A stretch of 32,950 nt of DNA, taken from the IMG/VR virus record IMGVR_UViG_3300010429_000248. One strand, given 5' to 3'. The notes beneath the pieces are model-generated. The model was not told the origin of the DNA. It worked only from the letters and a program-made list of their open reading frames with translations, and searched no databases. Numbering within the stretch: the first letter of the stretch is position 1; every line of letters begins with the position of its first letter. Made by a program: the position numbers and the translations under genes. Positions 8,284 through 32,950 of this stretch are shown piece after piece. The DNA comes from a virus.

Positions 8284-8325
8284 TCAACCTCTCTCTATTT
8301 ACGCTGTTAACTCGTTCTGATGGTG

Positions 8326-8807: not shown

Positions 8808-8843
8808 GTAAGTCGTTTCATGGTGTGTTGCCCTCCCACGTGT

Positions 8844-8863
8844 ATTATAGCACGCCTGTGCTA
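8844..8863. repeat. 20-nt motif ATTATAGCACGCCTGTGCTA (hairpin-capable), copy A
   Basis: It matches 9999-10018 at 18 of 20 positions. It contains the TAGCAC-GCCT-GTGCTA hairpin followed by ATTATT, 37 nt after the cI stop, so it may also be a weak terminator. Confidence 0.6.
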
Positions 8864-8964
8864 ATTATTGCAATGGTAGCAACCTTAACAAATCGCGTGA
8901 CATTAGGTGACTGGCTTAATAGCGGAATGATAGTGGCAAACACAGCGAACCAACGAGGCGAGTT

Positions 8965-9016
8965 GTTCCCGTGGCCTAATGGATAAGGCACTGGCCTCCG
9001 AAGCCGGTCATGTGGC
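8965..9016 (+). other. tRNA-Arg(CCG)-like 5' fragment, candidate attP core
   Basis: It folds by eye as GTTCCCG-TG-GCCT-AATGGATA-AGGC-A-CTGGC-CTCCGAA-GCCGG-TCATG-TGG. That gives an acceptor 5' strand, a D arm, and an anticodon arm with loop CTCCGAA. No canonical T loop and no CGGGAAC 3' acceptor strand follow. Confidence 0.55.
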
Positions 9017-9074
9017 ACAATCGCCGCCAGCAACTCAGCCCCCTCGTTGAAGCGCACAATTATTGGCGGTAGCA

Positions 9075-9995: not shown

Positions 9996-9998
9996 GTA

Positions 9999-10018
9999 AT
10001 TATCGCACGCATGTGCTA
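9999..10018. repeat. 20-nt motif ATTATCGCACGCATGTGCTA, copy B
   Basis: It matches 8844-8863 at 18 of 20 positions. It starts 4 nt after the int stop and is followed by GGTTTTTGG. Confidence 0.6.
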
Positions 10019-10046
10019 CTCGCGGTTTTTGGGGCGGATTTTGGGC

Positions 10047-10058
10047 TTAGAAGCGATT
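10047..10058. repeat. Inverted single copy (TTAGAAGCGATT) of the 10223-10252 repeat unit
   Basis: Exact reverse complement of AATCGCTTCTAA. Confidence 0.7.
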
Positions 10059-10140
10059 GTGGTTGTAACGGAAAAAACGATTAATTGCGTGCGAAACCGC
10101 AATCGGACTGCGGAATTTCACGGAACGAAATTGCCGAAAA

Positions 10141-10180
10141 GTGCGGAATGAAATAGGCGTAATTCTCGGACATTCCGCAC
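10141..10180. repeat. Inverted repeat GTGCGGAAT ... ATTCCGCAC (9-bp arms, 22-nt spacer)
   Basis: The arms are at 10141-10149 and 10172-10180. A further TGCGGAAT lies at 10109-10116, and GCGGAATGA also occurs at 8922-8930, upstream of the tRNA fragment. Confidence 0.65.
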
Positions 10181-10222
10181 AATGAAACCGCGCCAAGTCG
10201 CACATTATGCTGATCATAATCA

Positions 10223-10252
10223 CGCTTCTAATCGCTTCTAATCGCTTCTAAT
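10223..10252. repeat. Three perfect tandem copies of CGCTTCTAAT (10-bp phasing), arm-type-site-like
   Basis: The sequence cgcttctaatcgcttctaatcgcttctaat, read directly, is flanked by partial TAATC units. Confidence 0.9.
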
Positions 10253-10284
10253 CACAATTATCGTTGGAGTTATGTGCAGGCGCT

Positions 10285-10308
10285 CACGTTTATCATTTGA
10301 TAAATGTG
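10285..10308. repeat. 24-bp near-perfect palindrome CACGTTTATCAT/TTGATAAATGTG
   Basis: 10 of 12 positions are symmetric. The inner 16 bp, TTTATCA-TT-TGATAAA, are perfectly symmetric. Confidence 0.75.
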
Positions 10309-10485
10309 AACTAGTAATTAGGTTTATCCTGCTTTGTGGTTCAAAGGTGATGAATATTCAGACTTTTGAATGAGATTGTAAGTTTTGCGCTTATTCTTTC
10401 AATGATGTAAGCGACTTTGAAACATTCCTTGTCACCGAACCTTTACTATCGTGCTCGTTTCGTGACTCAAAGTAGCACCATAGTA

Positions 10486-10511
10486 AAGAGCCACCCTTGC
10501 GAGTGGCTCTT
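10486..10511 (-). terminator. Candidate intrinsic terminator of the long leftward operon
   Basis: The minus strand reads AAGAGCCAC-TCGCAAGG-GTGGCTCTT followed by TACTAT. This is a 9-bp stem and an 8-nt loop, with the U tract partly inside the stem. It is downstream of the last minus-strand gene and of the tRNA-like element. Confidence 0.45.
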
Positions 10512-10591
10512 GCCTTGCCGAGCATTGGCGCGCGCTGCCAGTCGGCGGGTCTCAGAAAGGTGCGCATTGTCAAGAGGCGTTCCGGACACTA

Positions 10592-10657
10592 TGCGGAGGT
10601 GGTGGGAGTCGAACCCACGTGTATGCGCCCCGAAAGACGCGCGTCCCCGTCACCCCC
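10592..10657 (-). ncRNA. tRNA-like element: acceptor helix with a G3:U70 pair plus a canonical T arm, no D or anticodon arms (tmRNA-TLD-like or Ala-minihelix-like)
   Basis: The minus strand reads GGGGGTG-ACGGGGACGCGCGTCTTTCGGGGCGCATACAC-GTGGG-TTCGACT-CCCAC-CACCTCC-G-CA. GGGGGTG pairs with CACCTCC over 7 bp, and the third pair is G:T. The T arm is canonical. Confidence 0.6.
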
Positions 10658-10680
10658 ATTTCACTATATTATCACATCGG

Positions 10681-10875
10681 CTAACCTGCCACCTTATTCT
10701 TATCGGTCTGATACCACCCCTGCCCCTTGAAGTGCACCTCCACCGGCAGCCACACGCGCTCCATCAACTCGCGGCACTCGGCGCACACCGGCTCCTCGCG
10801 CTCCTCCATGTCGTACGGCTGCCAGACTTCGACGCGCTTGCCGCATTGCGTGCATTTGTAGACGTAGACGGGCAT
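10681..10875 (-). CDS. FmdB-family zinc-ribbon protein
   Basis: MPVYVYKCTQCGKRVEVWQ...VCAECRELMERVW..VHFKGQGWYQTD matches the FmdB/CxxC_CxxC_SSSS pattern. It ends with a TAG stop. Confidence 0.8.
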   Translation of the reverse strand: MPVYVYKCTQCGKRVEVWQPYDMEEREEPVCAECRELMERVWLPVEVHFKGQGWYQTDKNKVAG

Positions 10876-23192: not shown

Positions 23193-23600
23193 TTAATCTA
23201 AGCGAACGCGATAATATGCGCCGCAAGTCCACGTTGTTTTGCCTGCTTCGTCTAATTCAGGCATGAATATCTCTTCCTCACGCGCCAGCCAATAATTGCT
23301 CCAGCCCGTTACGGTCAAGTTTGTTTGCATGAGTGACGCGACCAGCCCGTCAATTGTTGCCGCCTGCTTTGCGGTCGCCGCATAACTGCGGACATATACC
23401 ACCTCATTCACGCTCGTGTTCGGTGTCATGTTCTCAGCCCCGCCGCCTGAATACGACCAGATCACGAACGGCAATGCTTTGTCTTCAGGCGCGTAACCGT
23501 GATAAATAGCCGTGCCGCCTAATGCCGAAACAAGCGCCGTGCCACCGGTCAGCCTGGTGTTGATAGCCGAGTTCAATGCGTTAAAAGGTGAGAGCGTCAT
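23193..23600 (-). CDS. Tail terminator / tail completion protein (DUF3168-like)
   Basis: 135 aa, upstream of the tube gene. YHGYAPEDKALPFVIWSYSGGG resembles gpU/DUF3168-type proteins, from memory. Confidence 0.45.
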   Translation of the reverse strand: MTLSPFNALNSAINTRLTGGTALVSALGGTAIYHGYAPEDKALPFVIWSYSGGGAENMTPNTSVNEVVYVRSYAATAKQAATIDGLVASLMQTNLTVTGWSNYWLAREEEIFMPELDEAGKTTWTCGAYYRVRLD

Positions 23601-23914
23601 CGCCAGGGCGTCCTTTTAGATGGCGTTCCTCGCCGGTCTGAGCGCGGGTAAAATGTGGGGGTTGTTCTCGCTGGCGCAGGTCTCGCTGGCGCGGGTCTCG
23701 TTATTGCAGGTCTGCTTGCCGGCGGTCTCGTAGGTCCAGCAATTAGCCTTCGAGCTGGAACAGATCTTCGCGCTGGTGTTGCCGCGCGGGTTATTGGCGC
23801 GCGCCTTGTAAAAGTCGATGTAATCCTTCGCAAGGTTGGCGAGTAACTATGGGTCGTGATTGTTGCCCTATTTGACGGTCTGCGCCTTGTTACATTGATT
23901 GTCGGATATGGCAT
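23597..23914 (-). CDS. Doubtful ORF (Arg/Pro/Thr-rich, 105 aa); the true coding frame of this insert is unresolved
   Basis: It has an ATG with GAGGA 3 nt upstream and an ATGA overlap at its end. However, 23 of 105 residues are Arg, mostly AGA/AGG/CGA codons that are rare in neighbouring genes. An alternative frame has normal codon usage (see findings). Confidence 0.3.
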   Translation of the reverse strand: MPYPTINVTRRRPSNRATITTHSYSPTLRRITSTFTRRAPITRAATPARRSVPARRLIAGPTRPPASRPAITRPAPARPAPARTTPTFYPRSDRRGTPSKRTPWR

Positions 23915-24262: not shown

Positions 24263-24625
24263 TCACGAAACACGCTCCAATTCCGCCCGCACGACTGCCT
24301 TCCACGACTGCCCATCATTGACGCTCAATACCGCGTAAGTGCGCCCATCCGCCGAAATGCGGTTGGTCGTGTCAAGCTCCGTATCATAAGGCAGACTCAA
24401 TACCGCTTTCGAATAAGGCTGCACCACGCCGCCAGCCATTGTTTCTGTTCCAGAACGATAGTCAATCCGGCAAGCCACCGATGCGGTTGCCGTGCCCCAC
24501 GCTTCGGTCAATCCGCCTTCACCATCGCCGGTATACGTCACCGCCAGAATAGAGCAAGTGTCAGGCAGCAGGTTGCCAATGTCGGACCGCATTTGTGCCA
24601 GTTCAGCATCGGTTAGCCAACTCAT
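24263..24625 (-). CDS. Head closure / head-tail adaptor protein
   Basis: 120 aa. Gene order and a pattern like the SPP1 gp16/HK97 gp9 class (LPDTCSI...YRSGTE...). Confidence 0.5.
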   Translation of the reverse strand: MSWLTDAELAQMRSDIGNLLPDTCSILAVTYTGDGEGGLTEAWGTATASVACRIDYRSGTETMAGGVVQPYSKAVLSLPYDTELDTTNRISADGRTYAVLSVNDGQSWKAVVRAELERVS

Positions 24626-25197
24626 ATATCGTCCCTCACAATCTTGACCGTCTGTATGCTTTCGCTTGAGCTGCGTGCCTGGTAGAACGCGGCCATGTCA
24701 AGGAACGCCTTCGCTTGATGTGAACGCTTGACGTTGTGCCCGTCGGTTGACCAGTCGACCTTCTCAGCCGCGTGTGACGCCTTGACGCGCCAGATATCAG
24801 CCGCCGCCGCGTTCAGGTCGTAAGCGAAACCGCTCCACCACAACGACTTACCCGCCTGATCGGTCGCGAACGTTGCAATGCCCCGCGCGTAATCCATCGA
24901 AGTTGGCGTGACTGTGCCACTTACGTCCTCAACTTTGAATACCGCCGTGCCACCTTCAATGTTAGGAACGTCGGTTCTGTATTGCGTGTAAACCGGCGAA
25001 CCGCCTGAGTACGAAACTACCGGCGTCATGTCAGCGTGGATATATTCAACCTTATGGCGGTCAAGCACATTCTGGATTTGAATGTCATCCCAATAGTTTG
25101 TAATACTGGAATCGGTCGTAACCGTCCACTCAGTCGCGCCGGCGTTGGCATAGCCGCGTACCGTGTCAATTAATGTCTGCATCCCTGTTCGTGCCAT
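24622..25197 (-). CDS. Hypothetical virion protein in the head-tail connector position
   Basis: 191 aa, the first structural gene after the modification cassette. No motif recognised. Confidence 0.5.
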   Translation of the reverse strand: MARTGMQTLIDTVRGYANAGATEWTVTTDSSITNYWDDIQIQNVLDRHKVEYIHADMTPVVSYSGGSPVYTQYRTDVPNIEGGTAVFKVEDVSGTVTPTSMDYARGIATFATDQAGKSLWWSGFAYDLNAAAADIWRVKASHAAEKVDWSTDGHNVKRSHQAKAFLDMAAFYQARSSSESIQTVKIVRDDI

Positions 25198-25198
25198 T

Positions 25199-25951
25199 TC
25201 ACCTCATGCTTTCAGCGAGCCACTTGTCGCGGTTACGCTCTTCCCGCCAGCCGATATGGTATCCACTATGTCCTGCGCAGCGGTAGCAGGATGCCGGTGT
25301 ATCGGGTTGATTCAAATAATTCGATAATGCCTGTTCCGTTAGCCCTTTCACTTTGATGCCGTCCGCTTCTTTTGCCAGTCCTAAGATCAACTCAGGGATG
25401 AACGGGCTTGTGCAGCACCTGTAGAAGTAACCGTTATCCAGCACCCGGCAATAAGTGCGATACCAGCAGCCTTTATATATTCCAGCCGCCTCTGCATCGC
25501 TTGCCGTGCGTTTGTACAGCAGGGTCGTAAAGTCATCCCGCCCGTTCTTGACGCGCAAAACCTTTCCATGTTCGGCGCATTTAGCCTGCACAAAATCCAA
25601 ATCCACCGGCTTGCCAGGGTACAGCGTCAAGTCAATCTCATCCGCAAGTTGCCAGAACGTTTCAGTCATTGCCCTCAAGCGCGCGCCGTTCGTCCAAACT
25701 TCGATAATGTCAACCGTGCCGCTTTCGCGTACAGCCTTCAGCACCGCGTCAATGTCAGGGTGCAGGGTGGGTTCGCCGCCGATTGCCGCCCAACGGCTGA
25801 TATGCGCCACCCTTCCAAAGTCGCGCAGGTCGCGCCCGACTTGCTCCGCGCTCAAGCGTTCGCCCTTTTGCATCGGGATAAAGTGATTGCACCCGATACA
25901 GGCGTTCTGGCAAGCCAGCGTGATATTCGTTTCAACGTGTTCTATCAGCAT
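25199..25951 (-). CDS. Radical SAM enzyme with a Cys-rich C-terminal auxiliary (SPASM/twitch-like) region
   Basis: CQNACIGC (CxxxCxxC) at residues 14-21 and a GGEPTLHP SAM-binding motif. The C-terminal cysteines are GCWYRTYCRVLDNGYFYRCC...CYRCAG. Confidence 0.8.
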   Translation of the reverse strand: MLIEHVETNITLACQNACIGCNHFIPMQKGERLSAEQVGRDLRDFGRVAHISRWAAIGGEPTLHPDIDAVLKAVRESGTVDIIEVWTNGARLRAMTETFWQLADEIDLTLYPGKPVDLDFVQAKCAEHGKVLRVKNGRDDFTTLLYKRTASDAEAAGIYKGCWYRTYCRVLDNGYFYRCCTSPFIPELILGLAKEADGIKVKGLTEQALSNYLNQPDTPASCYRCAGHSGYHIGWREERNRDKWLAESMR

Positions 25952-26586
25952 GAGTAGTCCATGACCTCAAGCGTCTCAAAGTACATTTCCGGCAAGTTGT
26001 ACATGCCAAAGTGCGGCAAGGTTCCAGCGCCGGGCCTGATACTTTCGTACCGCGCGGCAATGGCTTCCCGCTCCGCGCGCGACTTGACAAGGAACTTGTG
26101 ATGCTCAATGGGGAACGGTACTAATTGCCCCGTTCCGTACGGGCTGCCAACGTGGATCTCATTGCGCCCGCCCGACTTCGCACGCGTGCTCAAGCGCGTC
26201 TGATAATCAGGCAGCAGCGCGGGTAGGAAATGCCGCTCGTCACCCCAAAGGTAAGGGCGCACGAAGGCGAACACTTCGCCAGCCTCGTACCATTCAGCCG
26301 CCAGCCAGTCAAGTAGGGCGATGCTGATTGTTTCATCATCATCGAGCCGCAGGATGTAATCACCCGTGCAATGTTTCAGCACCTCATCCAGAACACTCTC
26401 GATGTAGCCCTTGCTTTTCACCCTCACAACCACGTCTGCCAGCGCCTCAATGGCTTTAGGCGCGCTTTCGCGGTCAATGCCGATAACCAGTTCAGCACCC
26501 AGCGCGTCCGCGTCTTTGCGCATACGGGCAATAAACCTTTCGGCGTGTGCCTCGCAATTAGTGACGGTGACAATGGATAGACTCAT
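25945..26586 (-). CDS. Glycosyltransferase, GT-A fold (family 2-like)
   Basis: MSLSIVTVTN... N-terminal Rossmann-like strand and an LRLDDDE DxD motif. 213 aa. Confidence 0.6.
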   Translation of the reverse strand: MSLSIVTVTNCEAHAERFIARMRKDADALGAELVIGIDRESAPKAIEALADVVVRVKSKGYIESVLDEVLKHCTGDYILRLDDDETISIALLDWLAAEWYEAGEVFAFVRPYLWGDERHFLPALLPDYQTRLSTRAKSGGRNEIHVGSPYGTGQLVPFPIEHHKFLVKSRAEREAIAARYESIRPGAGTLPHFGMYNLPEMYFETLEVMDYSC

Positions 26587-27041
26587 GCTTGTTTCCTTAG
26601 CACGTAGCCGATGTTCGACCTGTTATCGCGCCGTTCGACTGATTCAACCGTCCACCATTTGTTTTGTGGGAAGTAGAATTTGCCATAATTAGCGTGATAA
26701 TCCGTGCGGCTATCCCAGTAATCAAAGGTGTGTTCGTGGAACAGTTTGCGGTGGGTCGGGTCAATGTGCGAGTTTTCGTGATCCCATGCTGGCAAGCGCA
26801 AAACCAGCGTTCCATCCGGTACGAGTATGCGCCAACACTCAACCAGCCACTCGCTAATATCGACCTTCAAGTGCTCCATAACGTCAAGCGCGATGATTTT
26901 GTCAAACTCTTCATCGCCCCAAATCCAGGGCATTACTTCCAAATCCCATACGATGTCTACAAAGTCAGAGTGCTTTTCCTTGTCGTGGTTGACCGCACCT
27001 TCTATCGGTCTGATTCCGCAGCCTAATTGAAGTGTGCTCAT
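26583..27041 (-). CDS. Class I SAM-dependent methyltransferase
   Basis: Motif I LQLGCG, with IALDVMEHL and LVPDGTLVL (Methyltransf_11/23-like). Confidence 0.75.
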   Translation of the reverse strand: MSTLQLGCGIRPIEGAVNHDKEKHSDFVDIVWDLEVMPWIWGDEEFDKIIALDVMEHLKVDISEWLVECWRILVPDGTLVLRLPAWDHENSHIDPTHRKLFHEHTFDYWDSRTDYHANYGKFYFPQNKWWTVESVERRDNRSNIGYVLRKQA

Positions 27042-28222
27042 GCTTTCACCGCCTGCTCGAAACTGGTAGCCGACTTGTCCTTGATAATCTGCTCCATCTC
27101 TTTCAGTACCGGCTTCCAGTATTGGCGTGTCACATCATCGGCATCGTAAGGCAACGCGCCCCGTCTTGCCTGATTGCGCAACTCGTAATCACCTTTCGCT
27201 GCGTAAGCCTGCTCCATTCGGTCATAGATCGCCGCTGTGGTCGCCTGCCATTGGAACGCGTCAAAGTAATCGTGATAAACCGGCAGCGCCTCTGCTTTGT
27301 CAATCTTCCAGCCTGCAAAACATAACTCGCTCATCGAAGTCCAGTCGCCAACAATCACCGGTGTTCCGCAAGCCTGCGCTTCGAGAATCGGAATACCAAA
27401 CCCTTCGCCCAATGCCACGTTAGTCAACACGTCCATTCCGTTGTAAGCATCAACCATGTACTCATCAGGAAATCCGAGCCCGTAATGGTACGGATCGCAA
27501 AACACAACGTCCTCGCCAAGTTTCAGCCCCATCCGTTTGATGAATTTCGGCAGGTTCACAACCTCCCCGCCGTTCAAACCTGCGTCTGTATGCAGATACA
27601 TCATCGTGTCGGGGTGTTCGTGATGCAAAGCGGCAAATGCGGCAATTTGCTCATAGAACGCCTTGCGAGAAGGATTGCCCTTGTTCGCTGCGACCATTCC
27701 AACAATGAACTTATCCTGTGGCCATTCCAGGTGTTCGCGTGCCTCTTGTCTGTCTAACGGCTTGAACACTTTCGTGTCAACCGCGTGCGGAATGTACCAA
27801 GCGTCCAGACCTGCCATTTCGCACATCCGCTTGCCAAACTTGCTCATTGCGATTACTTTGGTTGCCTTCCTTGCCGATGCCAGCACGTTTTCCGGCATTG
27901 GCTCGTGGTCTATCGGAAACCAGGGAAACCAGGGCATCGGTATGTTTTCAGACTGAACGACCCAAATATCGAGCAGAGTAATGACCGCGTCTGCTTGATC
28001 CCAAACCGCGTGAGCACCGATAACATCTTGCCCGTATGGGTGTTTGAATGACGGATAGACCTTGATCCCGTTGACATTCAACACACCGCTTTGCACGCCA
28101 AAAAAGGCTGTGATAGAGATACCTCCGTCAAGCAGTTTCGCAAGACGAGGCACGAATGTTTTTGTTTGATTCCCATAGCCAGTACAAGCGGCTGGGCTGT
28201 TACTGAACCAGTTGATTCTCAT
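27038..28222 (-). CDS. Glycosyltransferase, GT-B fold (family 4/1-like)
   Basis: The EGFGIPILEAQACGTPVIV signature (E-x7-E). Trimmed to the ATG at 28222, with GGAGG 12 nt upstream. Confidence 0.8.
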   Translation of the reverse strand: MRINWFSNSPAACTGYGNQTKTFVPRLAKLLDGGISITAFFGVQSGVLNVNGIKVYPSFKHPYGQDVIGAHAVWDQADAVITLLDIWVVQSENIPMPWFPWFPIDHEPMPENVLASARKATKVIAMSKFGKRMCEMAGLDAWYIPHAVDTKVFKPLDRQEAREHLEWPQDKFIVGMVAANKGNPSRKAFYEQIAAFAALHHEHPDTMMYLHTDAGLNGGEVVNLPKFIKRMGLKLGEDVVFCDPYHYGLGFPDEYMVDAYNGMDVLTNVALGEGFGIPILEAQACGTPVIVGDWTSMSELCFAGWKIDKAEALPVYHDYFDAFQWQATTAAIYDRMEQAYAAKGDYELRNQARRGALPYDADDVTRQYWKPVLKEMEQIIKDKSATSFEQAVKA

Positions 28223-28324
28223 ATTGTTTTCAAGCCTCCAGCTTGCGCTCCGTTGGGGCAAGGAAGCGGTGGAGCGTGCCGTTTGTCGGGGTATACGCCC
28301 TATCCTTGCCCATCAAGTCAGTTG

Positions 28325-29164
28325 TTAGACAGACGTGCCCTTCAACTGCACGCCGTAGGTTGGTCGGTATACACCGTAGCCGTAGACCATCGAAGCGTTG
28401 AGTTCCCACGCGCCAACACCGGCGTATGAGGCATCCCATTGCGGGTTGATCGTGAATCCCTGACGAATGTCGAGGGCAAGTGCTTCCTTGCTGAACATTG
28501 CACCGATTGCGGCAGTACCGCTTGTGATGTTTGCGTCAACGAAGAAGTCCATATTGTCGAGAGAGGCTTGATAAAAGCCGCTCATAAAGCGATTCTTCAA
28601 GTCTTCGCTCTGCATGAGGGTCGGAACACCGGATGAAGCGGAAGTCAGGTAGTACCATTGCATCGGGTGGATCACGACCGAGTAACGACCGTAGATTTTG
28701 TTCCCGCGCATAACAGCCTGTGCGTTGAAGACGTTAGCCCAAGTCAAAGTGCCGCCTGCTGTTCCCACAGTGCCACCGGTCAAGCCAGCCAATGTACCGG
28801 CAAGGTTGGTATCAATGTGAGCAGCGGCGGTTTCGCCCAAGTAACGACCTGCGTCACGTTGTGCACCGGCAGGATCGCTCTTAATGCGGTTCATGGTCAG
28901 GCTAATCTGCTGACCATAGGTTGAAGGCGTGATTGTGCCCCCAGCGGTTGCGCTGAAGGTTTCAGCGGTCATATCCACAGTGCCAGCGATGGCGCTAAAA
29001 GTACCGCCGCTGTATTCGCCGTAGACGCGGGGTGCAAGACCCTGATAGTCGCCGAAAGTTGTTACCAATGGCGCAAGTACGTTGCCTTCCTGCGCGGTAA
29101 ATAGCGCAAGTTCGTAAACGTTTGCGACCAAAGTTTTGATGTCATCATAAGTTGATGCAGCCAT
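28325..29164 (-). CDS. Major capsid protein (HK97-fold expected)
   Basis: 279 aa, directly downstream of the scaffold gene, with AGGAG upstream. The composition and length are typical. The call rests on position and pattern. Confidence 0.75.
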   Translation of the reverse strand: MAASTYDDIKTLVANVYELALFTAQEGNVLAPLVTTFGDYQGLAPRVYGEYSGGTFSAIAGTVDMTAETFSATAGGTITPSTYGQQISLTMNRIKSDPAGAQRDAGRYLGETAAAHIDTNLAGTLAGLTGGTVGTAGGTLTWANVFNAQAVMRGNKIYGRYSVVIHPMQWYYLTSASSGVPTLMQSEDLKNRFMSGFYQASLDNMDFFVDANITSGTAAIGAMFSKEALALDIRQGFTINPQWDASYAGVGAWELNASMVYGYGVYRPTYGVQLKGTSV

Positions 29165-29176: not shown

Positions 29177-29743
29177 CTATTGAGGATTTTCAGGTCCCCA
29201 GTTGATTCCGCCGCCCCTCCAAATATTCGCGTCACTCCCGACAAGTCTTTCGAGCTTCTGTGCTCGTGTTTCCTCTTTCGAGGCTTGCTCACCTGGATTC
29301 GTAGCGCCCGTATTCGGTGCGGCTTTTTGTTTCGGTTGCGTTTCGAGGATAAACTTCGCGTCCGCTTCCAGTTCTTCCGGCGTCTCGCCTTTCAATCTGT
29401 CAGCCAAGCGCGGGTCTAATCCCACTTTTGCCGCAATGTCATGTTGCAACCTATTAATTTCAAGTTGCCTGACTTTCAATTCAAGTTCCTGCGCGTGTTT
29501 GTTGGCTCGCTCAATTTCGGTCATCTCGGCTTCCTTGCGCTTAGCCTCTTCCTGCTCAAACTTCGCCAGTTTCTTGAAGTGACGATCTGCCTCATCCGCC
29601 TTATTCTTTGCGCGGCGTTCGGCTTCGTCCAATCGCGCTTTCAACTCCTCAACCGTCTCGGTCTTGTCGATTACTTGCGTGTCAACCTGTTGTTCGCCTG
29701 TCTCAGGCGCTTTCAATTCGTCCACCATCTCGGTTTCCTCCAT
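29177..29743 (-). CDS. Capsid scaffolding protein
   Basis: 188 aa after trimming to the ATG at 29743. It is highly charged with coiled-coil character (EELKARLDEAERRAKNKADEADRHFKKLAKFEQEEAKRKEAEM) and lies between the head accessory and capsid genes. Confidence 0.7.
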   Translation of the reverse strand: MEETEMVDELKAPETGEQQVDTQVIDKTETVEELKARLDEAERRAKNKADEADRHFKKLAKFEQEEAKRKEAEMTEIERANKHAQELELKVRQLEINRLQHDIAAKVGLDPRLADRLKGETPEELEADAKFILETQPKQKAAPNTGATNPGEQASKEETRAQKLERLVGSDANIWRGGGINWGPENPQ

Positions 29744-29745
29744 GA

Positions 29746-30735
29746 TTATTTCGTTTTGTACGGCGGCTCTCCGCCAAGTAAATCCCAAAGCGGCTTGGTC
29801 TGAAGCATCTCGCCGTAGACATCATCATGCCGCCGTCCTAACATATCCTTAAGCTCAAATCCACCGGCTTTCCAAACGTCAAAAGTTTGTTTCCCCATCA
29901 TCTTTTCTTGCTCTGATTCAGATAGTCCCTTGAACCAGTCCTCCCCTTTTTGATTGTCGTATTCGTACCCCTTCACAACCGGCGTGCTCACGCACCTGCA
30001 GTTGTAGTGGCTGTCCATTGGCTCGTCTATTTCGTGGATTGTGCCATTCTCAATCGCACAAGCCATGCAAACATCGCCATCCATTGACGCGTTCCACATC
30101 CAACCGATCACCACGTCCGCGTTCGCCGCGTAACTTGCCCGCGCCGCTTCTCGGTTGGCGTAAAGCTGAGAGGTGCGTGACATTCTCATCGCGTCCGTCA
30201 GTCCGCCACCCATAACTGATTCGAACATCTTCGCAGTCTTAGCAGGGTTGTATCCAAGCGCAATACCCTCAAGCAACGAGTCCGCTACCTTCTGCGCGTG
30301 CGTGCCAGCCAGCTCACCAATCCGTTTCCAGAGCGGCGAATCTTCCTGCAGAAAACCGAGCATCGAATATATCGCGTTCGTTGGCAAGGACTTCGGCAAT
30401 GCGTAACCAGCCGCTTTCAAGTAAGCCGCCGTCTGCTTGACCGCTAAGTCAATGGAGGCCTGCGCGTTAGCCTTGATTTCCATCTCAACGAAGCCGGAGT
30501 ATTTCGTAAGCTCCGATTCGATAGACCTGATAAGGTTCTGATACTGCGCAAGCCTGAATACCTGCCCCTTTGTCGGCTCTTCCATGTTCGAAATAACCAG
30601 CAATAGCGCGTCCAGTTTGTCCTTCATCCGTGCGTAAAGTTGCGAGTAGGTTCGCGCCAATCGCCCCAACGCCAAAGCGTCCTGTCGGTTGACGGCGTTT
30701 CTAAACTGCGTGGCGAGTTCGGTCGGTGTTGGCAA
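29746..30735 (-). CDS. Minor head protein, SPP1 gp7 / Mu F-like
   Basis: The WMWNASMDGDVCMACAIENGTIHEIDEPMDSHYNCRCV motif, typical of the Phage_Mu_F family. It lies directly after the portal gene. Confidence 0.75.
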   Translation of the reverse strand: MPTPTELATQFRNAVNRQDALALGRLARTYSQLYARMKDKLDALLLVISNMEEPTKGQVFRLAQYQNLIRSIESELTKYSGFVEMEIKANAQASIDLAVKQTAAYLKAAGYALPKSLPTNAIYSMLGFLQEDSPLWKRIGELAGTHAQKVADSLLEGIALGYNPAKTAKMFESVMGGGLTDAMRMSRTSQLYANREAARASYAANADVVIGWMWNASMDGDVCMACAIENGTIHEIDEPMDSHYNCRCVSTPVVKGYEYDNQKGEDWFKGLSESEQEKMMGKQTFDVWKAGGFELKDMLGRRHDDVYGEMLQTKPLWDLLGGEPPYKTK

Positions 30736-30738: not shown

Positions 30739-32082
30739 TTATCCTCCTTGACTAAAAGTCCTGAGAAGTGCACTTCCAAGATTATCACCAGCCGCCGATT
30801 CGTCAGCAATGCGCTGTTCCTCGTCTTCCCAAACGTAGCCCCTTATGCCAGCCGCCGTCTGTTTGCTCACCAAGCCAAGCTCCAAATCGGTCCGGATAGC
30901 GAGTGCGACCTCGCTGTCGTTGGTAGGCATAATATCAGGCCATTCGACCTCGCCGCCGTCCGAATCAGGCGCGCCGGCAAGCTCCAAAAGCCGGTGATTG
31001 ATTTCCACAATCCCCTCACCGTAAAGCCCCCGCTTCTCTTCGAGCTTGCTCAGCGCATCCTGGTACAACACGCGTAAACCGAAGTTCGTCAATGAACCGA
31101 GTTTATCCGCCAGCGAGTCAATGTCCACCGACCGCGCAACGTCAAACATAGCCTGGCGCAGGTAGCGGATGAAGCTCAAAGACGAGCCCAAATCCGACTG
31201 CATCTCAAGGTTCTGGATCATGCCGTTAGAGTCGGATAGCATAACCATCTCATCCACGCCCCACTCCACCTTCGCCTGACTCAACGCGCCCCGTCCCCAT
31301 GTCTTCGGATGTGCGTGATATTTGATAATCTTCGCCGTGTTGGACGAAACAAAATTGATCTTGTCCTGCAAGTCAATCAGGTCGGCGGTAATGTCGGGTC
31401 GTCCGTAAGGACTGCCGACTTCTGGTAAGTTCTGCCAGTGCACAATTGGCGCGAAGTCGTACTCCCACACCTGCACGTTGGTTTGCTCCCAGCGTGCCCC
31501 GTTGATTGATTCGTAATCGGTGATAATCCAGTTACCCGTATCAGGATCGTGCTCCGTAACCTGCCGAATCGCCTTGTCCTTGCCGGTTGTCTGGTCAACA
31601 ATCGCATACGCGATGGTGTAGCGAATGACCGTCTCAATATCCTCTGCCAGCGCGTCCATTGTCACGGTTGCAGGATCCAACGCAATCAAGCGCGGAACTA
31701 ACCTGCCGTCCCTCGTGAGCGCCCCGTCTGGCAGTATCTTCATGTAGCACGTGCCAGCTTCAGCCCCGTAGACTGCCGTTTGTTTTAAGAGGTTCTGCTT
31801 GCGGTTAGCGCGCCACACCTCGTCAATGTACTGCTGCGCCGGCGCGTCTGATTCGCCAGGCAGGTCAAACGCCGGCTCTTTGCCGAACAGGTTGGCCACG
31901 CTCCGGTCCACCTGCAAGCCGATAAAATTAACGATAATGGCATCATCCGCCGACTTAATCGGTTGCTTGTGAATGCCCTTGCGATAATCGCGCCGAGTCG
32001 TTAGCTCGTTCTGTTTTGTCACCCACTCGTGGCCAAGCAGCGGTTCAAGTAACCAGTTCCGAAAGTTAGTTAATAATCCCAT
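30739..32082 (-). CDS. Portal protein
   Basis: 447 aa, lying between terL and the Mu-F-like gene. The size and order are canonical. Confidence 0.75.
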   Translation of the reverse strand: MGLLTNFRNWLLEPLLGHEWVTKQNELTTRRDYRKGIHKQPIKSADDAIIVNFIGLQVDRSVANLFGKEPAFDLPGESDAPAQQYIDEVWRANRKQNLLKQTAVYGAEAGTCYMKILPDGALTRDGRLVPRLIALDPATVTMDALAEDIETVIRYTIAYAIVDQTTGKDKAIRQVTEHDPDTGNWIITDYESINGARWEQTNVQVWEYDFAPIVHWQNLPEVGSPYGRPDITADLIDLQDKINFVSSNTAKIIKYHAHPKTWGRGALSQAKVEWGVDEMVMLSDSNGMIQNLEMQSDLGSSLSFIRYLRQAMFDVARSVDIDSLADKLGSLTNFGLRVLYQDALSKLEEKRGLYGEGIVEINHRLLELAGAPDSDGGEVEWPDIMPTNDSEVALAIRTDLELGLVSKQTAAGIRGYVWEDEEQRIADESAAGDNLGSALLRTFSQGG

Positions 32083-32093: not shown

Positions 32094-32950
32094 CTAATAT
32101 TCATAGAACGGATTCTTGACCACACGTACACGCTGTTCCATGCCACTCCACGCAATCGCCAGGCTCATCACGCAGTCGTCGTGCATCCCTGACGGCGCGC
32201 TGTAGCTGAAGCTGCCCGACGCGTTCCTGGTCGCCTCGAAACTCAATAACTCACCGACCAGCACCGCGTCGTTCAGGACTCGAATCTGCCCATTTTCGAA
32301 GGCTGATTGCAAGCTCTGAATAATTGACTGCTTCGTCGCCGAAGTCGTCGTAAATGGCACGATATTCAAACCACGCTTGACTAAATTATCAATAACTGGT
32401 CTACCAATGCTGTTCGATTCCACAAGCATGGATGACATGTGATAACGCTGGTACACGCTTACCAATCTGTCTTCCAAGACCGGGTAATCCACGCGGTTGA
32501 AGCGATCCTGCCAGACTTGCTCACGCGCTTCCACATCGAACACGCACACCACCGTAAAATCAACGGATGAAGCCACGTCCACGCCGGCAATGTACTGACG
32601 GTTAGGCTGCGGCTCTTGCGGTGATAATATTGCAGCCTCCTGAACGCGCCGGAAGACGCCGCCGTCAGAATCTATAAATTCTGCCAACACTTCCTGACGG
32701 TAAATCAATTCCGGCATAGTGTCACGCATGGCCTCAACTTCGCTTTTTGCAATGGTCGGGTTGGCGCTTGTCGGAAATTGCCACGACTTCCATTCGGTAT
32801 TCAATTCGTCTTGCCCCAACTGGAACAATTGATGAAAGCCGTTTCTGCCTTTTGGCGTTGATTTGAAATAGGCATCGCCTTTCAGGTCAACCAATGTCGG
32901 TCTCAAAATAGCGTTCCAAGTATTCATCAAATCGCTTACCATTGCCGCCT
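32094..32950 (-). CDS. terL: Terminase large subunit, C-terminal nuclease part (frame stays open to the window end)
   Basis: The ORF track gives 282 aa. The frame stays open upstream of the listed Met to base 32950 and joins the 1..494 segment. It lies directly upstream of the portal gene. Acidic motifs (IAGVDVASSVDFTV, MHDDCVMSLAIAW) resemble RNaseH-like terminase nuclease domains. Confidence 0.85.
   Translation of the reverse strand, partial: AAMVSDLMNTWNAILRPTLVDLKGDAYFKSTPKGRNGFHQLFQLGQDELNTEWKSWQFPTSANPTIAKSEVEAMRDTMPELIYRQEVLAEFIDSDGGVFRRVQEAAILSPQEPQPNRQYIAGVDVASSVDFTVVCVFDVEAREQVWQDRFNRVDYPVLEDRLVSVYQRYHMSSMLVESNSIGRPVIDNLVKRGLNIVPFTTTSATKQSIIQSLQSAFENGQIRVLNDAVLVGELLSFEATRNASGSFSYSAPSGMHDDCVMSLAIAWSGMEQRVRVVKNPFYEY
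32824..32950. repeat. Second copy of the terminal direct repeat (same as 1..127)
   Basis: Exact 127-nt identity with the window start, read by eye. Confidence 0.95.

What the first reader, a model, noticed from the sequence alone, without database searches (positions are those of the whole stretch)
25199..28222. Radical-SAM / GT2 / methyltransferase / GT4 cassette embedded between the capsid and connector genes
Four enzyme genes sit in the middle of the head morphogenesis operon, directly after the major capsid gene. They have overlapping stops and starts (25945-25951, 26583-26586, 27038-27041, 25197-25199), so they are co-expressed with the virion proteins.
- GT-B glycosyltransferase with the EGFGIPILEAQACGTPVIV signature.
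- Class I SAM methyltransferase with LQLGCG.
- GT-A glycosyltransferase with LRLDDDE.
- A 250-aa radical SAM protein with CxxxCxxC, GGEPTLHP and a Cys-rich C-terminal region suggesting an auxiliary Fe-S cluster.
From memory, GT plus O-methyltransferase genes in structural operons have been tied to capsid and tail-tube glycosylation in some mycobacteriophages. I do not know of a radical SAM partner described in that context.
Small radical SAM enzymes with twitch or SPASM domains either oxidise or rearrange sugars (BtrN-type) or cross-link peptides (sactipeptide or ranthipeptide maturases). The cassette may therefore build a methylated, radically tailored glycan on a virion protein, or combine glycosylation with a peptide cross-link.
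The cassette is separated from the capsid gene by the only sizeable untranslated gap in the late operon (28223-28324). That gap has long-range complementarity, GGCAAGGA with TCCTTGCC (28257-28264 with 28303-28310), which might attenuate enzyme expression relative to capsid.
Basis: partly seen in the sequence, partly recalled or inferred. Interest (0 to 1): 0.75.

Follow-up and report, generated by a model that had tools for sequence, protein, structure and literature searches.

The report
Phage capsid-adjacent sugar-tailoring gene island
Right after its capsid gene, this temperate tailed phage carries four co-translated enzymes that build and tailor a sugar chain, one of them a radical-SAM sugar epimerase/dehydrogenase of a kind known only from antibiotic pathways; this matters because near-identical phages swap this gene set like bacterial serotype loci, although what gets glycosylated is still unproven.

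Summary
On the minus strand, MCP (28325-29164) is followed by a 102-nt leader, then GT4/GT-B (27038-28222), a small class I methyltransferase (26583-27041), a GT-A enzyme (25945-26586) and a 250-aa radical SAM protein (25199-25951), then the head-tail genes.

The radical SAM protein is a twitch-domain enzyme. Its closest solved relative is SpeY, the spectinomycin sugar dehydrogenase (TM 0.91, profile E 2e-42). It is not a peptide cross-linker. It has Cys at the column where SpeY has Ser, which I recall as the H-donor Cys183 of the epimerase HygY, so I predict an epimerase.

In every uncut locus (22/22) it co-occurs with one uncharacterised GT-A family. Neither family appears in 50,697 GenBank phage records.

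Phages with 83-97% identical capsid proteins keep GT4 but swap the genes behind it. The slot holds MT only, or other GT2/GT34/CmcI-type MT sets, or GT-A plus rSAM. A Microcystis phage has an NAD-dependent sugar epimerase there.

The gap is a conserved, covarying, probably pseudoknotted RNA leader of GT4, not a terminator. It has no Rfam match.

Most likely the island makes a late-expressed, methylated and epimerised glycan on a virion protein. The target is inferred, not shown.

The parts
28325..29164 (-). Major capsid protein gene. It lies immediately upstream of the island and is the presumed, unproven acceptor of the glycan.
   Evidence: Pfam Phage_capsid_4 E 1.9e-7, and phrog_267 major head protein. 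It is 83-97% identical in contigs that carry different tailoring gene sets.
28223..28324 (-). Conserved structured RNA leader of GT4, 102 nt.
- Outer 9-bp stem: 28311-28303 with 28264-28256.
- 'UAG' followed by a short hairpin.
- C-rich loop segment CGCUCC at 28276-28271.
- Candidate pseudoknot partner GGAGCG at 28251-28246.
- SD hairpin at 28245-28231, with GGAGG at 28239-28235.
   Evidence: - The exact 26-nt core occurs in 22 IMG/VR contigs.
- Mean pairwise identity is 92.9% for the leader, against 81-82% for the flanking coding sequence.
- A covariance model hits exactly upstream of GT4 in L004, L008, L009, L010 and L017.
- 71 of 72 stem cells are paired, and 7 of 9 positions show two-sided compensatory changes across six lineages, including Microcystis phage Mae-JY09.
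- A covarying 5-6-nt loop/downstream complement is present in all seven lineages.
- There is no Rfam match and no terminator-scan hit.
27038..28222 (-). GT4 (GT-B fold) glycosyltransferase. It is the constant anchor gene of the island and the presumed priming transferase.
   Evidence: - Glyco_trans_1_4 and Glycos_transf_1 score above gathering. phrog_2170 E 1.7e-33. EX7E motif present.
- 45% identical to the Mae-JY09 'RfaG glycosyltransferase', which sits in the same position.
- 34% identical to the Pontimonas phage phiPsal1 GT, which sits between the MCP and neck genes.
- 82-94% identical in all island variants.
- No transmembrane segment.
26583..27041 (-). Minimal class I SAM-dependent methyltransferase of 152 aa, with motif I at the N-terminus. 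Presumed sugar O-methyltransferase.
   Evidence: - Methyltransf_11, 25.9 bits against a cut-off of 21.2. phrog_6636 methyltransferase.
- Relatives replace it with FkbM (MT21) domains fused to GT4, CmcI/MT24 domains fused to the GT-A, or free-standing MT23/MT24 genes.
25945..26586 (-). GT-A fold glycosyltransferase of an uncharacterised family (alignment A4). It is the obligate partner of the radical SAM gene.
   Evidence: - Glycos_transf_2, 28.0 bits against a cut-off of 23.3.
- Invariant residues R80, D82-D84, E85, H145, H162 and K164.
- AF2 pLDDT 96.3.
- Best Foldseek matches are the ThuS/SunS peptide S-glycosyltransferases (TMq 0.58-0.61), then RmlT and TarS.
- It co-occurs with the rSAM family in 22 of 22 uncut loci and in none of 60 loci holding more distant rSAMs.
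- No match in GenBank phage records.
25199..25951 (-). Twitch-domain radical SAM enzyme of the SpeY/HygY/BtrN type. Predicted sugar C-H epimerase, or possibly a dehydrogenase.
   Evidence: - CX3CX2C at C14/C18/C21, and GGEPTLH at 58-64.
- C162, C179, C180, C222 and C225 are invariant.
- Profile match to PDB 7wzv (SpeY), E 1.9e-42 over residues 7-247.
- AF2 pLDDT 95.6.
- Foldseek to SpeY: TMq 0.91, rmsd 1.8 A, 27% identity. BtrN is next.
- Cys168 aligns with SpeY Ser183. That column is Cys in 75 of 120 SpeY-like proteins.
24622..25197 (-). Conserved 191-aa protein that closes the island and opens the head-tail connector block. It has no family assignment.
   Evidence: No Pfam or PHROG hit. It lies directly after the island in all lineage members, at 35-73% identity, one base after the rSAM stop codon.

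Best explanation
**What it is.** The region is a late-operon glycan-building and glycan-tailoring island.

**How it is expressed.** It is transcribed with the head genes. Its first gene is translated from behind a structured leader RNA. The remaining genes are translationally coupled.

**Proposed steps.**
1. The soluble GT4 enzyme, the only constant gene of the island, transfers a first sugar from a host nucleotide-sugar pool onto the acceptor.
2. The GT-A enzyme adds a further sugar.
3. The twitch radical SAM enzyme acts on the assembled glycoside, as its relatives HygY and SpeY do.
4. The small methyltransferase O-methylates the glycan.

**Radical SAM chemistry in detail.**
- The enzyme cleaves SAM to form the 5'-deoxyadenosyl radical.
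- This radical abstracts the carbinol hydrogen of one sugar carbon.
- Because Cys168 occupies the H-donor position, the enzyme returns a hydrogen to the opposite face. This epimerises the sugar in place into a rare sugar.
- Family members with Ser, Thr or Arg at this position would instead pass the electron to the auxiliary cluster and yield a keto-sugar.

**Acceptor.** The most likely acceptor is a virion protein, above all the major capsid protein. The result would be a strain-specific glycan coat.

**Shown.**
- Gene identities, folds and conserved residues.
- Obligate pairing of the GT-A and the rSAM.
- Island hypervariability.
- Covariation in the leader RNA.

**Inferred.**
- Order of the steps.
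- Identity of the sugars.
- Epimerase versus dehydrogenase outcome.
- The acceptor.
For: **Enzyme classes.**
- Established.

**Radical SAM enzyme.**
- It aligns end to end with SpeY, with all four auxiliary-cluster Cys conserved.
- Column 168 separates SpeY orthologues (Ser/Ala) from all more distant relatives (Cys). The window protein has Cys.

**Relatives of the rSAM are linked to sugar chemistry.**
- Cellular relatives sit beside GT1/EryCIII-like, GT8 and GT2 genes.
- Some are fused to GT28, Methyltransf_11 or FkbM domains.

**Same-slot replacement.**
- Microcystis phage Mae-JY09 has GT4 (45% identical) followed by an NAD-dependent sugar epimerase/dehydratase where the window has the rSAM (PF01370, E 6e-32).

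**Position next to the head genes.**
- The island lies between the MCP and connector genes in phages with three different MCP families: Phage_capsid_4/phrog_267, phrog_1357 and phrog_771.
- The same position is used in phiPsal1, which its describers call lytic.

**Links to protein glycosylation.**
- Some island variants carry Maf/MptE-like domains. From my own knowledge, these are known from flagellin O-glycosylation.
- The best structural matches of the GT-A are peptide glycosyltransferases, by a small margin.

**Hypervariability.**
- The tailoring genes differ between phages with 83-97% identical MCP. This is what one expects for an exposed glycan under diversifying selection.

**Location in the cell and expression.**
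- None of the four proteins has a transmembrane segment. They overlap by ATGA or ATGCTGA.

**Precedent.**
- Phage-encoded GTs plus an O-methyltransferase glycosylate the capsid and tail tube of mycobacteriophages. This is Freeman et al. 2023, as summarised in PMC11600133 and PMC11256854.
Against: - No experiment or sequence feature identifies the acceptor. MCP C-termini in the lineage vary (GTSV, GKAT, GKAA) and some have no Ser or Thr in the last four residues.
- Gene position is a weak argument, because morons also insert between head and tail genes.
- The window phage has an integrase, so lysogenic conversion is possible.
- In L002/L003 the island lies next to replication genes rather than next to the MCP.
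- The epimerase call depends on mapping HygY Cys183 to this column from memory. Neither the paper nor the HygY sequence was available.
- Cys180 is invariant in the phage family and has no counterpart in SpeY. It is unexplained and could change the chemistry.
- The radical SAM domain scores just under Pfam's gathering threshold.
Confidence: 0.5

Rival explanations
1. The island modifies a host cell-envelope polymer (wall teichoic acid, another wall polysaccharide, LPS or EPS) rather than the virion. The purpose would be lysogenic conversion, superinfection exclusion, or stopping progeny from re-adsorbing to lysed cells. The hypervariability would then reflect receptor or serotype switching.
For: - The window phage is temperate: it has a tyrosine integrase at 9063-9995.
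- Foldseek matches of the GT-A include the wall-teichoic-acid glycosyltransferases TarS and RmlT.
- The endolysin is a GH25 plus SH3 type, common in phages of Gram-positive hosts.
- The conserved leader could hide a promoter that is active in the lysogen.
- Serotype-like gene swapping fits a cell-surface glycan equally well.
Against: - All four proteins are soluble. There is no GtrA/GtrB-type membrane component and no flippase.
- The genes are translationally coupled inside the late head operon. No sigma-70-type promoter was found in the leader.
- The same GT4-MT-GT2 arrangement between the MCP and neck genes occurs in phiPsal1, described as lytic.
- The island's position after the MCP recurs in phages with unrelated MCP families.
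Confidence: 0.22
2. The island hypermodifies phage DNA with a glycan, as in the phage GT-A/GT-B (plus sugar epimerase) clusters that glycosylate 5hmC.
For: - Phage GT-A and GT-B enzymes, sometimes paired with an epimerase, build di- and trisaccharides on 5hmC (bioRxiv 10.1101/2023.12.21.572611).
- Their GT-A enzymes share an R...DDD motif, which the window GT-A also has (R80, D82-D84).
- In L002/L003 the island sits beside replication genes and a MazZ-like dGTP diphosphohydrolase domain.
- In L020 a DNA N6/N4 methylase is inserted in the island.
Against: - Those clusters sit next to C5-MT plus 5mYOX/TET, or next to thymidylate-synthase homologues, which create the hydroxymethyl acceptor. None of these families was found among the ORFs scanned across the 33-kb window.
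- The cited paper itself considers GT contigs without such neighbours less likely to modify DNA.
- Position and translational coupling tie the island to the head genes.
- The methyltransferase is a 152-aa Methyltransf_11-like protein, not a DNA methyltransferase.
Confidence: 0.08
3. The island makes a diffusible glycoside, an aminoglycoside-like or other small molecule. The basis is that SpeY, HygY and BtrN are all aminoglycoside enzymes and that MshA-type GT4 enzymes glycosylate cyclitols.
For: - The closest characterised relatives of the rSAM act in spectinomycin and butirosin pathways.
- The best NCBIfam hit of GT4 is MshA, the inositol-phosphate glycosyltransferase (E 1e-10, far below its cut-off).
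- Cellular relatives of the rSAM lie in clusters that look like natural-product clusters, with AsnB-like, FkbO-like and EryCIII-like genes.
Against: - There is no cyclitol synthase, aminotransferase, exporter or resistance gene in the window or in related loci.
- Four genes are too few for such a pathway.
- Placement in the head operon and serotype-like variation are not expected for a metabolite cluster.
Confidence: 0.05
4. The radical SAM enzyme is a peptide maturase (sactipeptide or ranthipeptide type) that cross-links a virion protein, with glycosylation as a separate event.
For: The protein has a Cys-rich C-terminal region. Weak N-terminal similarity to several peptide maturase models appears in NCBIfam (E 1e-3 to 1e-2, far below their cut-offs).
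Against: - At 250 aa the protein has no RRE domain and no 7-Cys SPASM motif.
- The four auxiliary-cluster Cys and the whole chain superpose on the sugar dehydrogenase SpeY (TM 0.91).
- The peptide maturases CteB, SuiB and anSME reach only TM 0.4-0.55.
- The enzyme is obligately paired with a glycosyltransferase.
- An NAD-dependent sugar epimerase replaces it in the same slot in Mae-JY09.
Confidence: 0.03

Closest known systems
SpeY (spectinomycin; PDB 7WZV), HygY (hygromycin B) and BtrN (butirosin; PDB 4M7T): twitch-domain radical SAM sugar dehydrogenases and epimerases
   Same: - Same fold and length class. TMq is 0.91 to SpeY and 0.60 to BtrN.
- Same CX3CX2C motif.
- The same four auxiliary-cluster cysteines are conserved.
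- Relatives are linked to glycosyltransferases and methyltransferases.
- Cys is present at the column that is Ser in the dehydrogenase SpeY.
   Different: - Only 27% identical to SpeY.
- About 50 residues shorter at the N- and C-termini.
- An extra invariant Cys180 (RCC, against RCPQ in SpeY-like proteins).
- Encoded by phages, in a head-gene operon, with no aminocyclitol pathway nearby.
- Substrate unknown.
Mycobacteriophage virion glycosylation (Che8 and cluster F1/O phages; Freeman et al. 2023)
   Same: Phage-encoded glycosyltransferases plus an O-methyltransferase. The proposed outcome is a glycan coat on capsid or tail proteins.
   Different: - In those phages the genes lie near the right genome end or in tandem elsewhere, not between the MCP and connector genes.
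- They have no radical SAM enzyme.
- Glycosylation there is shown by MS. Here it is inferred.
- The hosts differ. No Mycobacterium phage appeared among the GT4, GT-A, rSAM or portal protein matches.
GT4-MT-GT2 cassettes between head genes in isolated phages: Pontimonas phiPsal1, Synechococcus S-CBS4, Microcystis Mae-JY09
   Same: - A homologous GT4 (27-45% identical) in the head module.
- It is accompanied by a SAM methyltransferase and a second GT or a sugar epimerase.
- Mae-JY09 also has the covarying leader RNA.
   Different: - These phages lack both the radical SAM family and its partner GT-A family.
- Their cassettes are annotated in GenBank but, as far as the held literature shows, never studied.
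Phage DNA glycan hypermodification clusters (C5-MT / 5mYOX / GT-A / GT-B / epimerase)
   Same: Phage GT-A and GT-B enzymes together with a sugar epimerase, and an R..DDD motif in the GT-A.
   Different: There is no C5-MT, 5mYOX/TET or ThyS-like gene in the window. The island sits in the head operon, not in the DNA-metabolism region.
Chlorovirus PBCV-1 A064R capsid glycosylation enzyme (two GT domains plus a methyltransferase). Cited from my own knowledge.
   Same: A virus-encoded GT + GT + sugar O-methyltransferase logic acting on the major capsid protein. Relatives of the window island also have GT-MT fusions.
   Different: It is a eukaryotic giant virus with unrelated sequences, N-linked glycans and no radical SAM step.

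Membership tests
Radical SAM superfamily | CX3CX2C motif binding the SAM-cleaving [4Fe-4S] cluster near the N-terminus | tested here: met
   C14, C18 and C21 are invariant in 40 of 40 aligned family members and in the 226-sequence joint alignment.
Radical SAM superfamily | Match to the Pfam PF04055 model at the gathering score | tested here: inconclusive
   The score is 28.7 bits against a gathering score of 29.5. Many homologues carry a precomputed PF04055 hit. The GGEP SAM-binding motif is present.
Twitch-domain radical SAM sugar dehydrogenase/epimerase (BtrN/SpeY/HygY type) | Abridged C-terminal domain that ligates one auxiliary [4Fe-4S] cluster through conserved cysteines | tested here: met
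   C162, C179, C222 and C225 are invariant and align with the corresponding Cys of SpeY-like proteins (119-120 of 120). Cluster binding itself cannot be tested with these tools.
Twitch-domain radical SAM sugar dehydrogenase/epimerase (BtrN/SpeY/HygY type) | Whole-chain structural and profile similarity to a solved member | tested here: met
   hmmsearch to 7wzv_A gives E 1.9e-42 over residues 7-247. Foldseek gives TMq 0.91 and rmsd 1.8 A.
Twitch-domain radical SAM sugar dehydrogenase/epimerase (BtrN/SpeY/HygY type) | Abstraction of the carbinol hydrogen of a glycoside or cyclitol substrate | not testable with these tools
   This needs anaerobic reconstitution with candidate substrates.
HygY-type epimerase (as opposed to SpeY-type dehydrogenase) | Cysteine H-atom donor at the position equivalent to HygY Cys183 | tested here: inconclusive
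   - The window protein has Cys168 at the column of SpeY Ser183 (native numbering).
- That column is Ser/Ala in SpeY orthologues and Cys in all more distant relatives.
- Equating the column with HygY Cys183 rests on my memory of Besandre et al. 2021.
SPASM/RRE peptide-modifying radical SAM maturases (sactipeptide or ranthipeptide type) | 7-Cys SPASM motif binding two auxiliary clusters, and an N-terminal RRE peptide-binding domain | tested here: not met
   There are only five C-terminal Cys in a 250-aa protein with no N-terminal extension. Peptide maturase structures match at TM 0.41-0.55 only.
GT4 / GT-B glycosyltransferases (Pfam Glycos_transf_1) | Pfam match at gathering score and the EX7E motif in the C-terminal Rossmann domain | tested here: met
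   Glyco_trans_1_4 scores 35.2 bits (cut-off 27) and Glycos_transf_1 scores 30.8 bits (cut-off 26.4). The sequence E-GFGIPIL-E is present.
GT2 / GT-A glycosyltransferases | GT-A fold with a DXD metal- and nucleotide-sugar-binding motif | tested here: met
   PF00535 scores 28.0 bits against a cut-off of 23.3. D82-D84 are invariant. The AF2 model (pLDDT 96.3) matches GT-A enzymes only.
Class I SAM-dependent methyltransferases | Rossmann-type fold with a glycine-rich motif I | tested here: met
   Methyltransf_11 scores 25.9 bits against a cut-off of 21.2. Motif I is LQLGCG at residues 5-10. The substrate (a sugar O atom) is inferred from fused FkbM/CmcI-type domains in relatives.
Phage virion glycosylation system (mycobacteriophage type) | Glycans covalently attached to capsid or tail tube subunits, dependent on phage GTs | not testable with these tools
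   This needs MS of virions or co-expression. Only the gene content (GTs plus a methyltransferase) and late-operon placement are shown.
Phage DNA glycan hypermodification cluster | GTs next to enzymes that create a hydroxymethyl-pyrimidine acceptor (C5-MT plus 5mYOX/TET, or a ThyS/dCMP-hydroxymethylase homologue) | tested here: not met
   Pfam scans of 45 window ORFs found none of these families. The part of the genome outside the window was not seen.
Gtr-type seroconversion module | Membrane-bound bactoprenol glycosyltransferase, flippase and serotype-specific transmembrane GT | tested here: not met
   The maximum 19-residue Kyte-Doolittle hydropathy is 0.79-1.33 in the four proteins, so none has a transmembrane segment.

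The most novel reading that the evidence does not exclude
Tailed phages of several lineages carry a serotype-like glycan locus behind the capsid gene. Its tailoring modules are exchanged between near-identical phages.

One such module is a phage-specific twitch radical SAM enzyme with its dedicated GT-A. It would perform post-transfer, radical-mediated epimerisation or oxidation of a sugar already attached to a virion protein. That chemistry is so far known only from aminoglycoside antibiotic pathways.

The whole locus would be controlled by a previously undescribed pseudoknotted leader RNA that could be a ligand-sensing riboswitch.
Probability: 0.3. Interest if true: 0.85.

Novelty: new variant of a known kind. 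Interest (0 to 1): 0.66.

Why it matters
- **Scope of virion glycosylation.** It has been demonstrated only for some actinobacteriophages and was judged rare elsewhere. This island and its relatives occur in cyanophage, marine actinophage and many uncultured phages. That suggests a widespread, modular and rapidly exchanging phage glycan locus anchored to the capsid gene.
- **Radical SAM enzymology.** If the radical SAM enzyme edits a sugar after transfer, that would be a first for radical SAM chemistry in protein, or at least macromolecular, glycosylation. It would also show how a small genome makes rare sugars without nucleotide-sugar pathways.
- **A built-in experiment.** The Cys/Ser/Arg variation at the H-donor column offers a natural test of the epimerase/dehydrogenase switch.
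- **A new RNA motif.** The covarying leader RNA is a candidate new cis-regulatory motif with an isolate, Mae-JY09, in which it can be tested.
- **Practical uses.** Glycan coats affect phage stability, adsorption and immune recognition. Swappable tailoring modules could be used to engineer them.

Tried and rejected
**Terminator or attenuator reading of the gap.**
- The consensus scan found no terminator there.
- The single-sequence fold z-score was only -0.87.
- The element proved real only through comparative analysis.

**Rfam.**
- There was no hit in the gap at E <= 1.

**Origin and host.**
- Megablast of 25 kb against E. coli genomes found nothing.
- blastn against the phage collection gave only an 86-nt GT4 hit.

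**Defence-system membership.**
- PADLOC gave only generic N-terminal similarity of the rSAM to pVip.

**NCBIfam.**
- Only weak N-terminal MoaA, viperin and maturase similarities appeared, all far below their cut-offs.

**Prophage copies in reference genomes.**
- The best cellular hits are about 29% identical. They belong to the SpeY-like cellular family and are not prophage copies.
- Cluster look-ups of the three NCBI-sourced homologues gave no names.

**Literature.**
- A full-text search for the PDB code returned nothing relevant.
- The HygY paper and the Freeman 2023 paper are not held. The SpeY paper was not found.

**MCP C-terminal Ser/Thr tail as a glycosylation signature.**
- The tails vary and some lack Ser and Thr, so this gives no evidence either way.

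**RNAalifold's inner 6-bp helix.**
- I replaced it with a short hairpin after UAG plus a pseudoknot, based on the distant leaders.
- MAFFT could not keep the 3' arm in register, so pair counts were made by script.

**Other.**
- One malformed Pfam call errored.

Full report
**1. Observation**

All genes in the region lie on the minus strand. Their order is:
- large terminase (32094-32942, cut by the window end)
- SPP1-type portal (30739-32082)
- MuF-like head morphogenesis protein (29746-30735)
- scaffold protein (29177-29788)
- major capsid protein (28325-29164; Phage_capsid_4, phrog_267)
- a 102-nt gap
- the four enzyme genes
- a conserved 191-aa protein, head completion, HK97 gp10-like, tail completion, tail tube and tape measure genes

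The four enzymes were assigned as follows:

| Gene | Coordinates | Pfam result |
|---|---|---|
| GT4 | 27038-28222 | Glyco_trans_1_4 and Glycos_transf_1 above gathering; phrog_2170 E 1.7e-33 |
| MT | 26583-27041 | Methyltransf_11 above gathering |
| GT2 | 25945-26586 | Glycos_transf_2 above gathering |
| rSAM | 25199-25951 | Radical_SAM 28.7 bits, gathering 29.5 |

The junctions are ATGA, ATGA and ATGCTGA overlaps. None of the four proteins has a hydrophobic segment. Their GC3 matches that of the neighbouring structural genes.

**2. The radical SAM enzyme**

*Family.* A search of 5.8 billion proteins returned 102 full-length homologues of about 250 aa. All come from metagenomes or unnamed records. 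In an alignment of 40 of them, C14, C18, C21, GGEP, C162, C179, C180, C222 and C225 are invariant.

*Closest solved structure.* A profile of that alignment hits one PDB sequence far above all others: 7WZV, E 1.9e-42 over residues 7-247. The AF2 model (pLDDT 95.6) superposes on it with TMq 0.91 and rmsd 1.8 A. The entry is "a Twitch Radical SAM Dehydrogenase SpeY". BtrN is next at TMq 0.60. Peptide maturases reach only 0.41-0.55.

*Comparison with the SpeY-like family.* I rebuilt a SpeY fragment from the printed alignment and searched with it. This gave 120 SpeY-like cellular proteins, including one that UniRef names SpcY. In a joint alignment of 226 sequences:
- The four auxiliary-cluster cysteines are shared by both families.
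- Window Cys180 is invariant in the phage family, but is Pro, Ala or Val in SpeY-like proteins.
- The column of window Cys168 equals Ser183 of native SpeY.
- That column is Ser or Ala in all close SpeY orthologues (the top 40 hits, with one exception) and Cys in essentially all more distant relatives.

[quoted passage not shown] I saw only this title, in reference lists. From memory, that residue is Cys183. If so, the window enzyme and its nearest relatives (21 of 106 family members) are epimerase-type. Members with Arg, Ser or Thr at this position would be dehydrogenase-type. This step is inferred.

*How widespread the family is.*
- A scan of 1.84 billion representatives gives 346 proteins at E <= 1e-30.
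- Some are fused to Glyco_tran_28_C, Methyltransf_11 or FkbM domains.
- Cellular relatives at 25-30% identity sit next to EryCIII-like GT1, GT8 and GT2 genes.
- No member occurs in 50,697 GenBank phage records.
- The best BFVD match has only 17% identity.

**3. The GT-A partner**

The 213-aa GT2 belongs to an uncharacterised family. The search gave 282 hits, and almost none of the 120 listed has a precomputed Pfam hit. R80, D82-D84, E85, H145, H162 and K164 are invariant.

The AF2 model (pLDDT 96.3) has a GT-A fold. The best matches are the peptide S-glycosyltransferases ThuS and SunS (TMq 0.58-0.61), then RmlT and TarS. The margin between them is small.

HMM scans of fetched loci show perfect linkage with the rSAM. 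Every uncut locus whose rSAM scores at least 232 bits also has this GT-A at 252 bits or more (22 of 22; L015 is cut). None of 60 loci with more distant rSAMs has it. The family is absent from GenBank phage records.

**4. Context in other phages**

*Same lineage.* In IMG/VR relatives (MCP 33-39% identical), the island again lies between the MCP and the 191-aa protein.

*Other MCP families.* It also lies just after the MCP, or before the connector genes, in phages with different MCP families: phrog_1357 in L001 and phrog_771 in L019 and L024.

*Variation in the accessory enzymes.* These include:
- GT4 fused to an FkbM methyltransferase
- the GT-A fused to a CmcI/MT24 methyltransferase
- Maf/MptE-like domains
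- inserted homing endonuclease or DNA methylase genes

*Isolated phages with a GT4 homologue in the head module.*
- Microcystis phage Mae-JY09: MCP, a 132-aa protein, GT4 (45% identical), a 210-aa protein, an NAD-dependent epimerase/dehydratase, a 183-aa protein, then the head-tail adaptor.
- Pontimonas phage phiPsal1: MCP, GT4, SAM methyltransferase, GT2, then the neck protein. Its describers call it lytic and do not discuss it further.
- Synechococcus phage S-CBS4: portal, a hypothetical protein, GT, galactosyltransferase, SAM methyltransferase.
- Tetrasphaera phage TJE1 has a nucleotidyltransferase, sugar epimerase, methyltransferase and GT cluster beside the terminase genes.

The SDR epimerase in the rSAM's slot in Mae-JY09 is a non-orthologous replacement. 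It supports a sugar-epimerising role for the rSAM.

**5. A hypervariable island**

Twenty further contigs share the window's leader sequence. Seventeen of them have an MCP 83-97% identical to the window's. L176 has 56%, and two contigs lack the gene. These contigs keep GT4 (82-94% identical) but differ in what follows it:

| Variant | Gene set after GT4 | Loci |
|---|---|---|
| A | MT, GT-A, rSAM | window, L007 |
| A' | a 48%-identical GT-A, then a 97%-identical rSAM | L006 |
| B | MT only | L169, L178, L180, L181, L186 |
| C | MT, GT34-like protein | L167, L183 |
| D | classical GT2, short GT2-like protein, CmcI-type rhamnosyl-O-methyltransferase-like protein | L168, L172, L173 |
| E | GT2, MT23/11-like protein | L175, L176 |

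This is the pattern of a serotype locus: a constant priming enzyme with exchangeable tailoring modules. It argues that the product is an exposed glycan under diversifying selection.

**6. The gap is an RNA leader of GT4**

*Conservation.* The 9-bp complementarity is real. The 102 nt are 92.9% identical on average among these contigs, against 81-82% for the adjacent 300 nt of MCP and GT4 coding sequence. L006 and L007 were found by protein similarity, so they are free of ascertainment bias. They give 87-88% for the leader, against 66-71% (MCP) and 78% (GT4).

*Distant copies.* A covariance model built from nine leaders hits exactly upstream of GT4 in L004, L017, L008, L009 and L010. In L004 the element is not next to the MCP gene, so it belongs to GT4. 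Independent folds of nine leaders all give the long-range stem.

*Covariation.* With the register anchored on an invariant UAG, 71 of 72 cells in the stem pair. Seven of the nine positions show two-sided compensatory changes across six lineages, including Mae-JY09.

*Other features.*
- A short hairpin follows the UAG, with GGG/CCC changing to GAG/CUC in L006.
- A GA(A/C)AA stretch comes next, then a C-rich segment.
- That segment has a 5-6-nt Watson-Crick complement starting 4-6 nt after the stem in all seven lineages. The sequences covary, for example CGCUCC/GGAGCG, CCCUCC/GGAGGG and UCCCUG/CAGGGA. This is a candidate pseudoknot.
- The Shine-Dalgarno sequence lies in a further small hairpin.

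*What it is not.* There is no U-tract, no terminator-scan hit and no Rfam match. Its function is unknown. A translational operator or a riboswitch-like leader that sets enzyme levels relative to capsid protein is my inference.

**7. Target and rivals**

*DNA glycosylation.* Known phage DNA-glycan clusters sit next to C5-MT plus 5mYOX, or next to ThyS homologues. None of these was found in scans of 45 window ORFs. Those scans did find an integrase, ERF, SSB, HNH endonucleases, a GH25/SH3 lysin and a holin.

*Envelope modification.* It stays possible because the phage is temperate and the GT-A resembles WTA glycosyltransferases. Against it:
- all four proteins are soluble
- the genes are coupled inside the late operon
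- the same arrangement occurs in a phage described as lytic

*Small-molecule product.* The pathway genes this would need are absent.

[quoted passage not shown] It best fits the position of the island, its coupling and its hypervariability. It is not shown here.

**8. Verdict**

The rSAM does sugar chemistry, not peptide cross-linking. The gap is a structured leader RNA. The acceptor is unproven.
- The island is a new variant of a known kind. The new elements are the phage-specific twitch rSAM with its GT-A partner, the serotype-like exchange of tailoring genes behind the capsid gene, and the covarying GT4 leader RNA.

Noticed in passing
window 28223-28324 (minus strand); also L004 5478-5538, L008 6460-6556, L009 7016-7118, L010 4810-4927, L017 5689-5791, and L166 about 6700-6787 (Mae-JY09): The GT4 leader looks like an undescribed RNA motif. 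It has a covarying 9-bp stem, an invariant UAG, a small hairpin, a GAAAA-like stretch, and a C-rich loop that can pair with a G-rich segment just after the stem (candidate pseudoknot). It has no Rfam match. It is present in an isolated cyanophage, where it could be tested.
   Followed up: partly
L167-L186 (IMG/VR contigs), compared with window 25199-28222: Contigs with MCP 83-97% identical to the window carry at least five different tailoring gene sets after a conserved GT4. This is a serotype-like hypervariable island. In L006 the rSAM is 97% identical but the GT-A only 48%, so recombination occurs inside the island.
   Followed up: partly
Joint alignment of P0107-P0226 (SpeY-like cellular proteins), column of window residue 168: Close SpeY/SpcY orthologues, including ones from Photorhabdus, Xenorhabdus and Erwinia, have Ser or Ala at native position 183-184. 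Essentially all more distant relatives have Cys. This column may predict dehydrogenase versus epimerase activity across the whole cellular family.
   Followed up: partly
window residue Cys180 of the rSAM (codon at about 25412-25414): Cys180 is a second cysteine directly after the cluster ligand Cys179 (motif RCC). It is invariant in all 106 phage-family sequences and absent from all 120 SpeY-like proteins (RCPQ). Its role is unexplained. It could be an alternative ligand or H donor, or a redox partner.
   Followed up: no
L002 5317-5763 and L003 79-525: A phage contig carrying the rSAM, GT-A and GT4 genes also encodes a dGTP_diPhyd_N (MazZ-like) domain, a Prim-Pol and a DUF4406 protein next to the island. 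MazZ-like enzymes are associated, from my own knowledge, with 2-aminoadenine (Z) genomes. In this phage the island lies by the replication genes.
   Followed up: no
window 23597-23914 (minus strand): A 105-aa ORF extremely rich in Arg, Pro and Thr lies between the HK97 gp10-like and tail completion genes. In the relative L007 those two genes abut with nothing between them. It may be an insertion or a spurious ORF.
   Followed up: no
window 9063-9995 (+), 6417-7262 (-), 1071-1802 (-), 7363-8034 (-): The window also holds a tyrosine integrase, an ERF recombinase and two HNH endonucleases, one with an HTH domain. Elsewhere it has an SSB, a GH25 plus SH3_3 endolysin and an LL-H-type holin. The phage is therefore temperate, and the lysin type hints at a Gram-positive or similar host. 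No close isolate exists. The nearest portal match is Mae-JY09 at 32%.
   Followed up: partly
L017 7993-8643; L020 8316-9119: Mobile or foreign genes are inserted inside the island in relatives: a GIY-YIG/NUMOD3 homing endonuclease in L017 and an N6/N4 DNA methylase in L020. This fits the island being a recombination hot spot.
   Followed up: no
P0254 (2198 aa), P0341, P0351, P0328: There are large fusion proteins with a C- or N-terminal rSAM of this clade. One is a 2198-aa protein with a methyltransferase-like region and the rSAM at residues 1958-2192. Others are rSAM fusions with GT28, Methyltransf_11 and FkbM domains. Their genomic contexts were not examined.
   Followed up: no
L188 (Tetrasphaera phage TJE1, record 5388-10731): An isolated actinophage has a fuller sugar pathway next to its terminase genes: nucleotidyltransferase, guanylate kinase, nucleotide-sugar epimerase, methyltransferase and a GT4 homologue. 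This suggests some phages also activate their own sugar donor.
   Followed up: no
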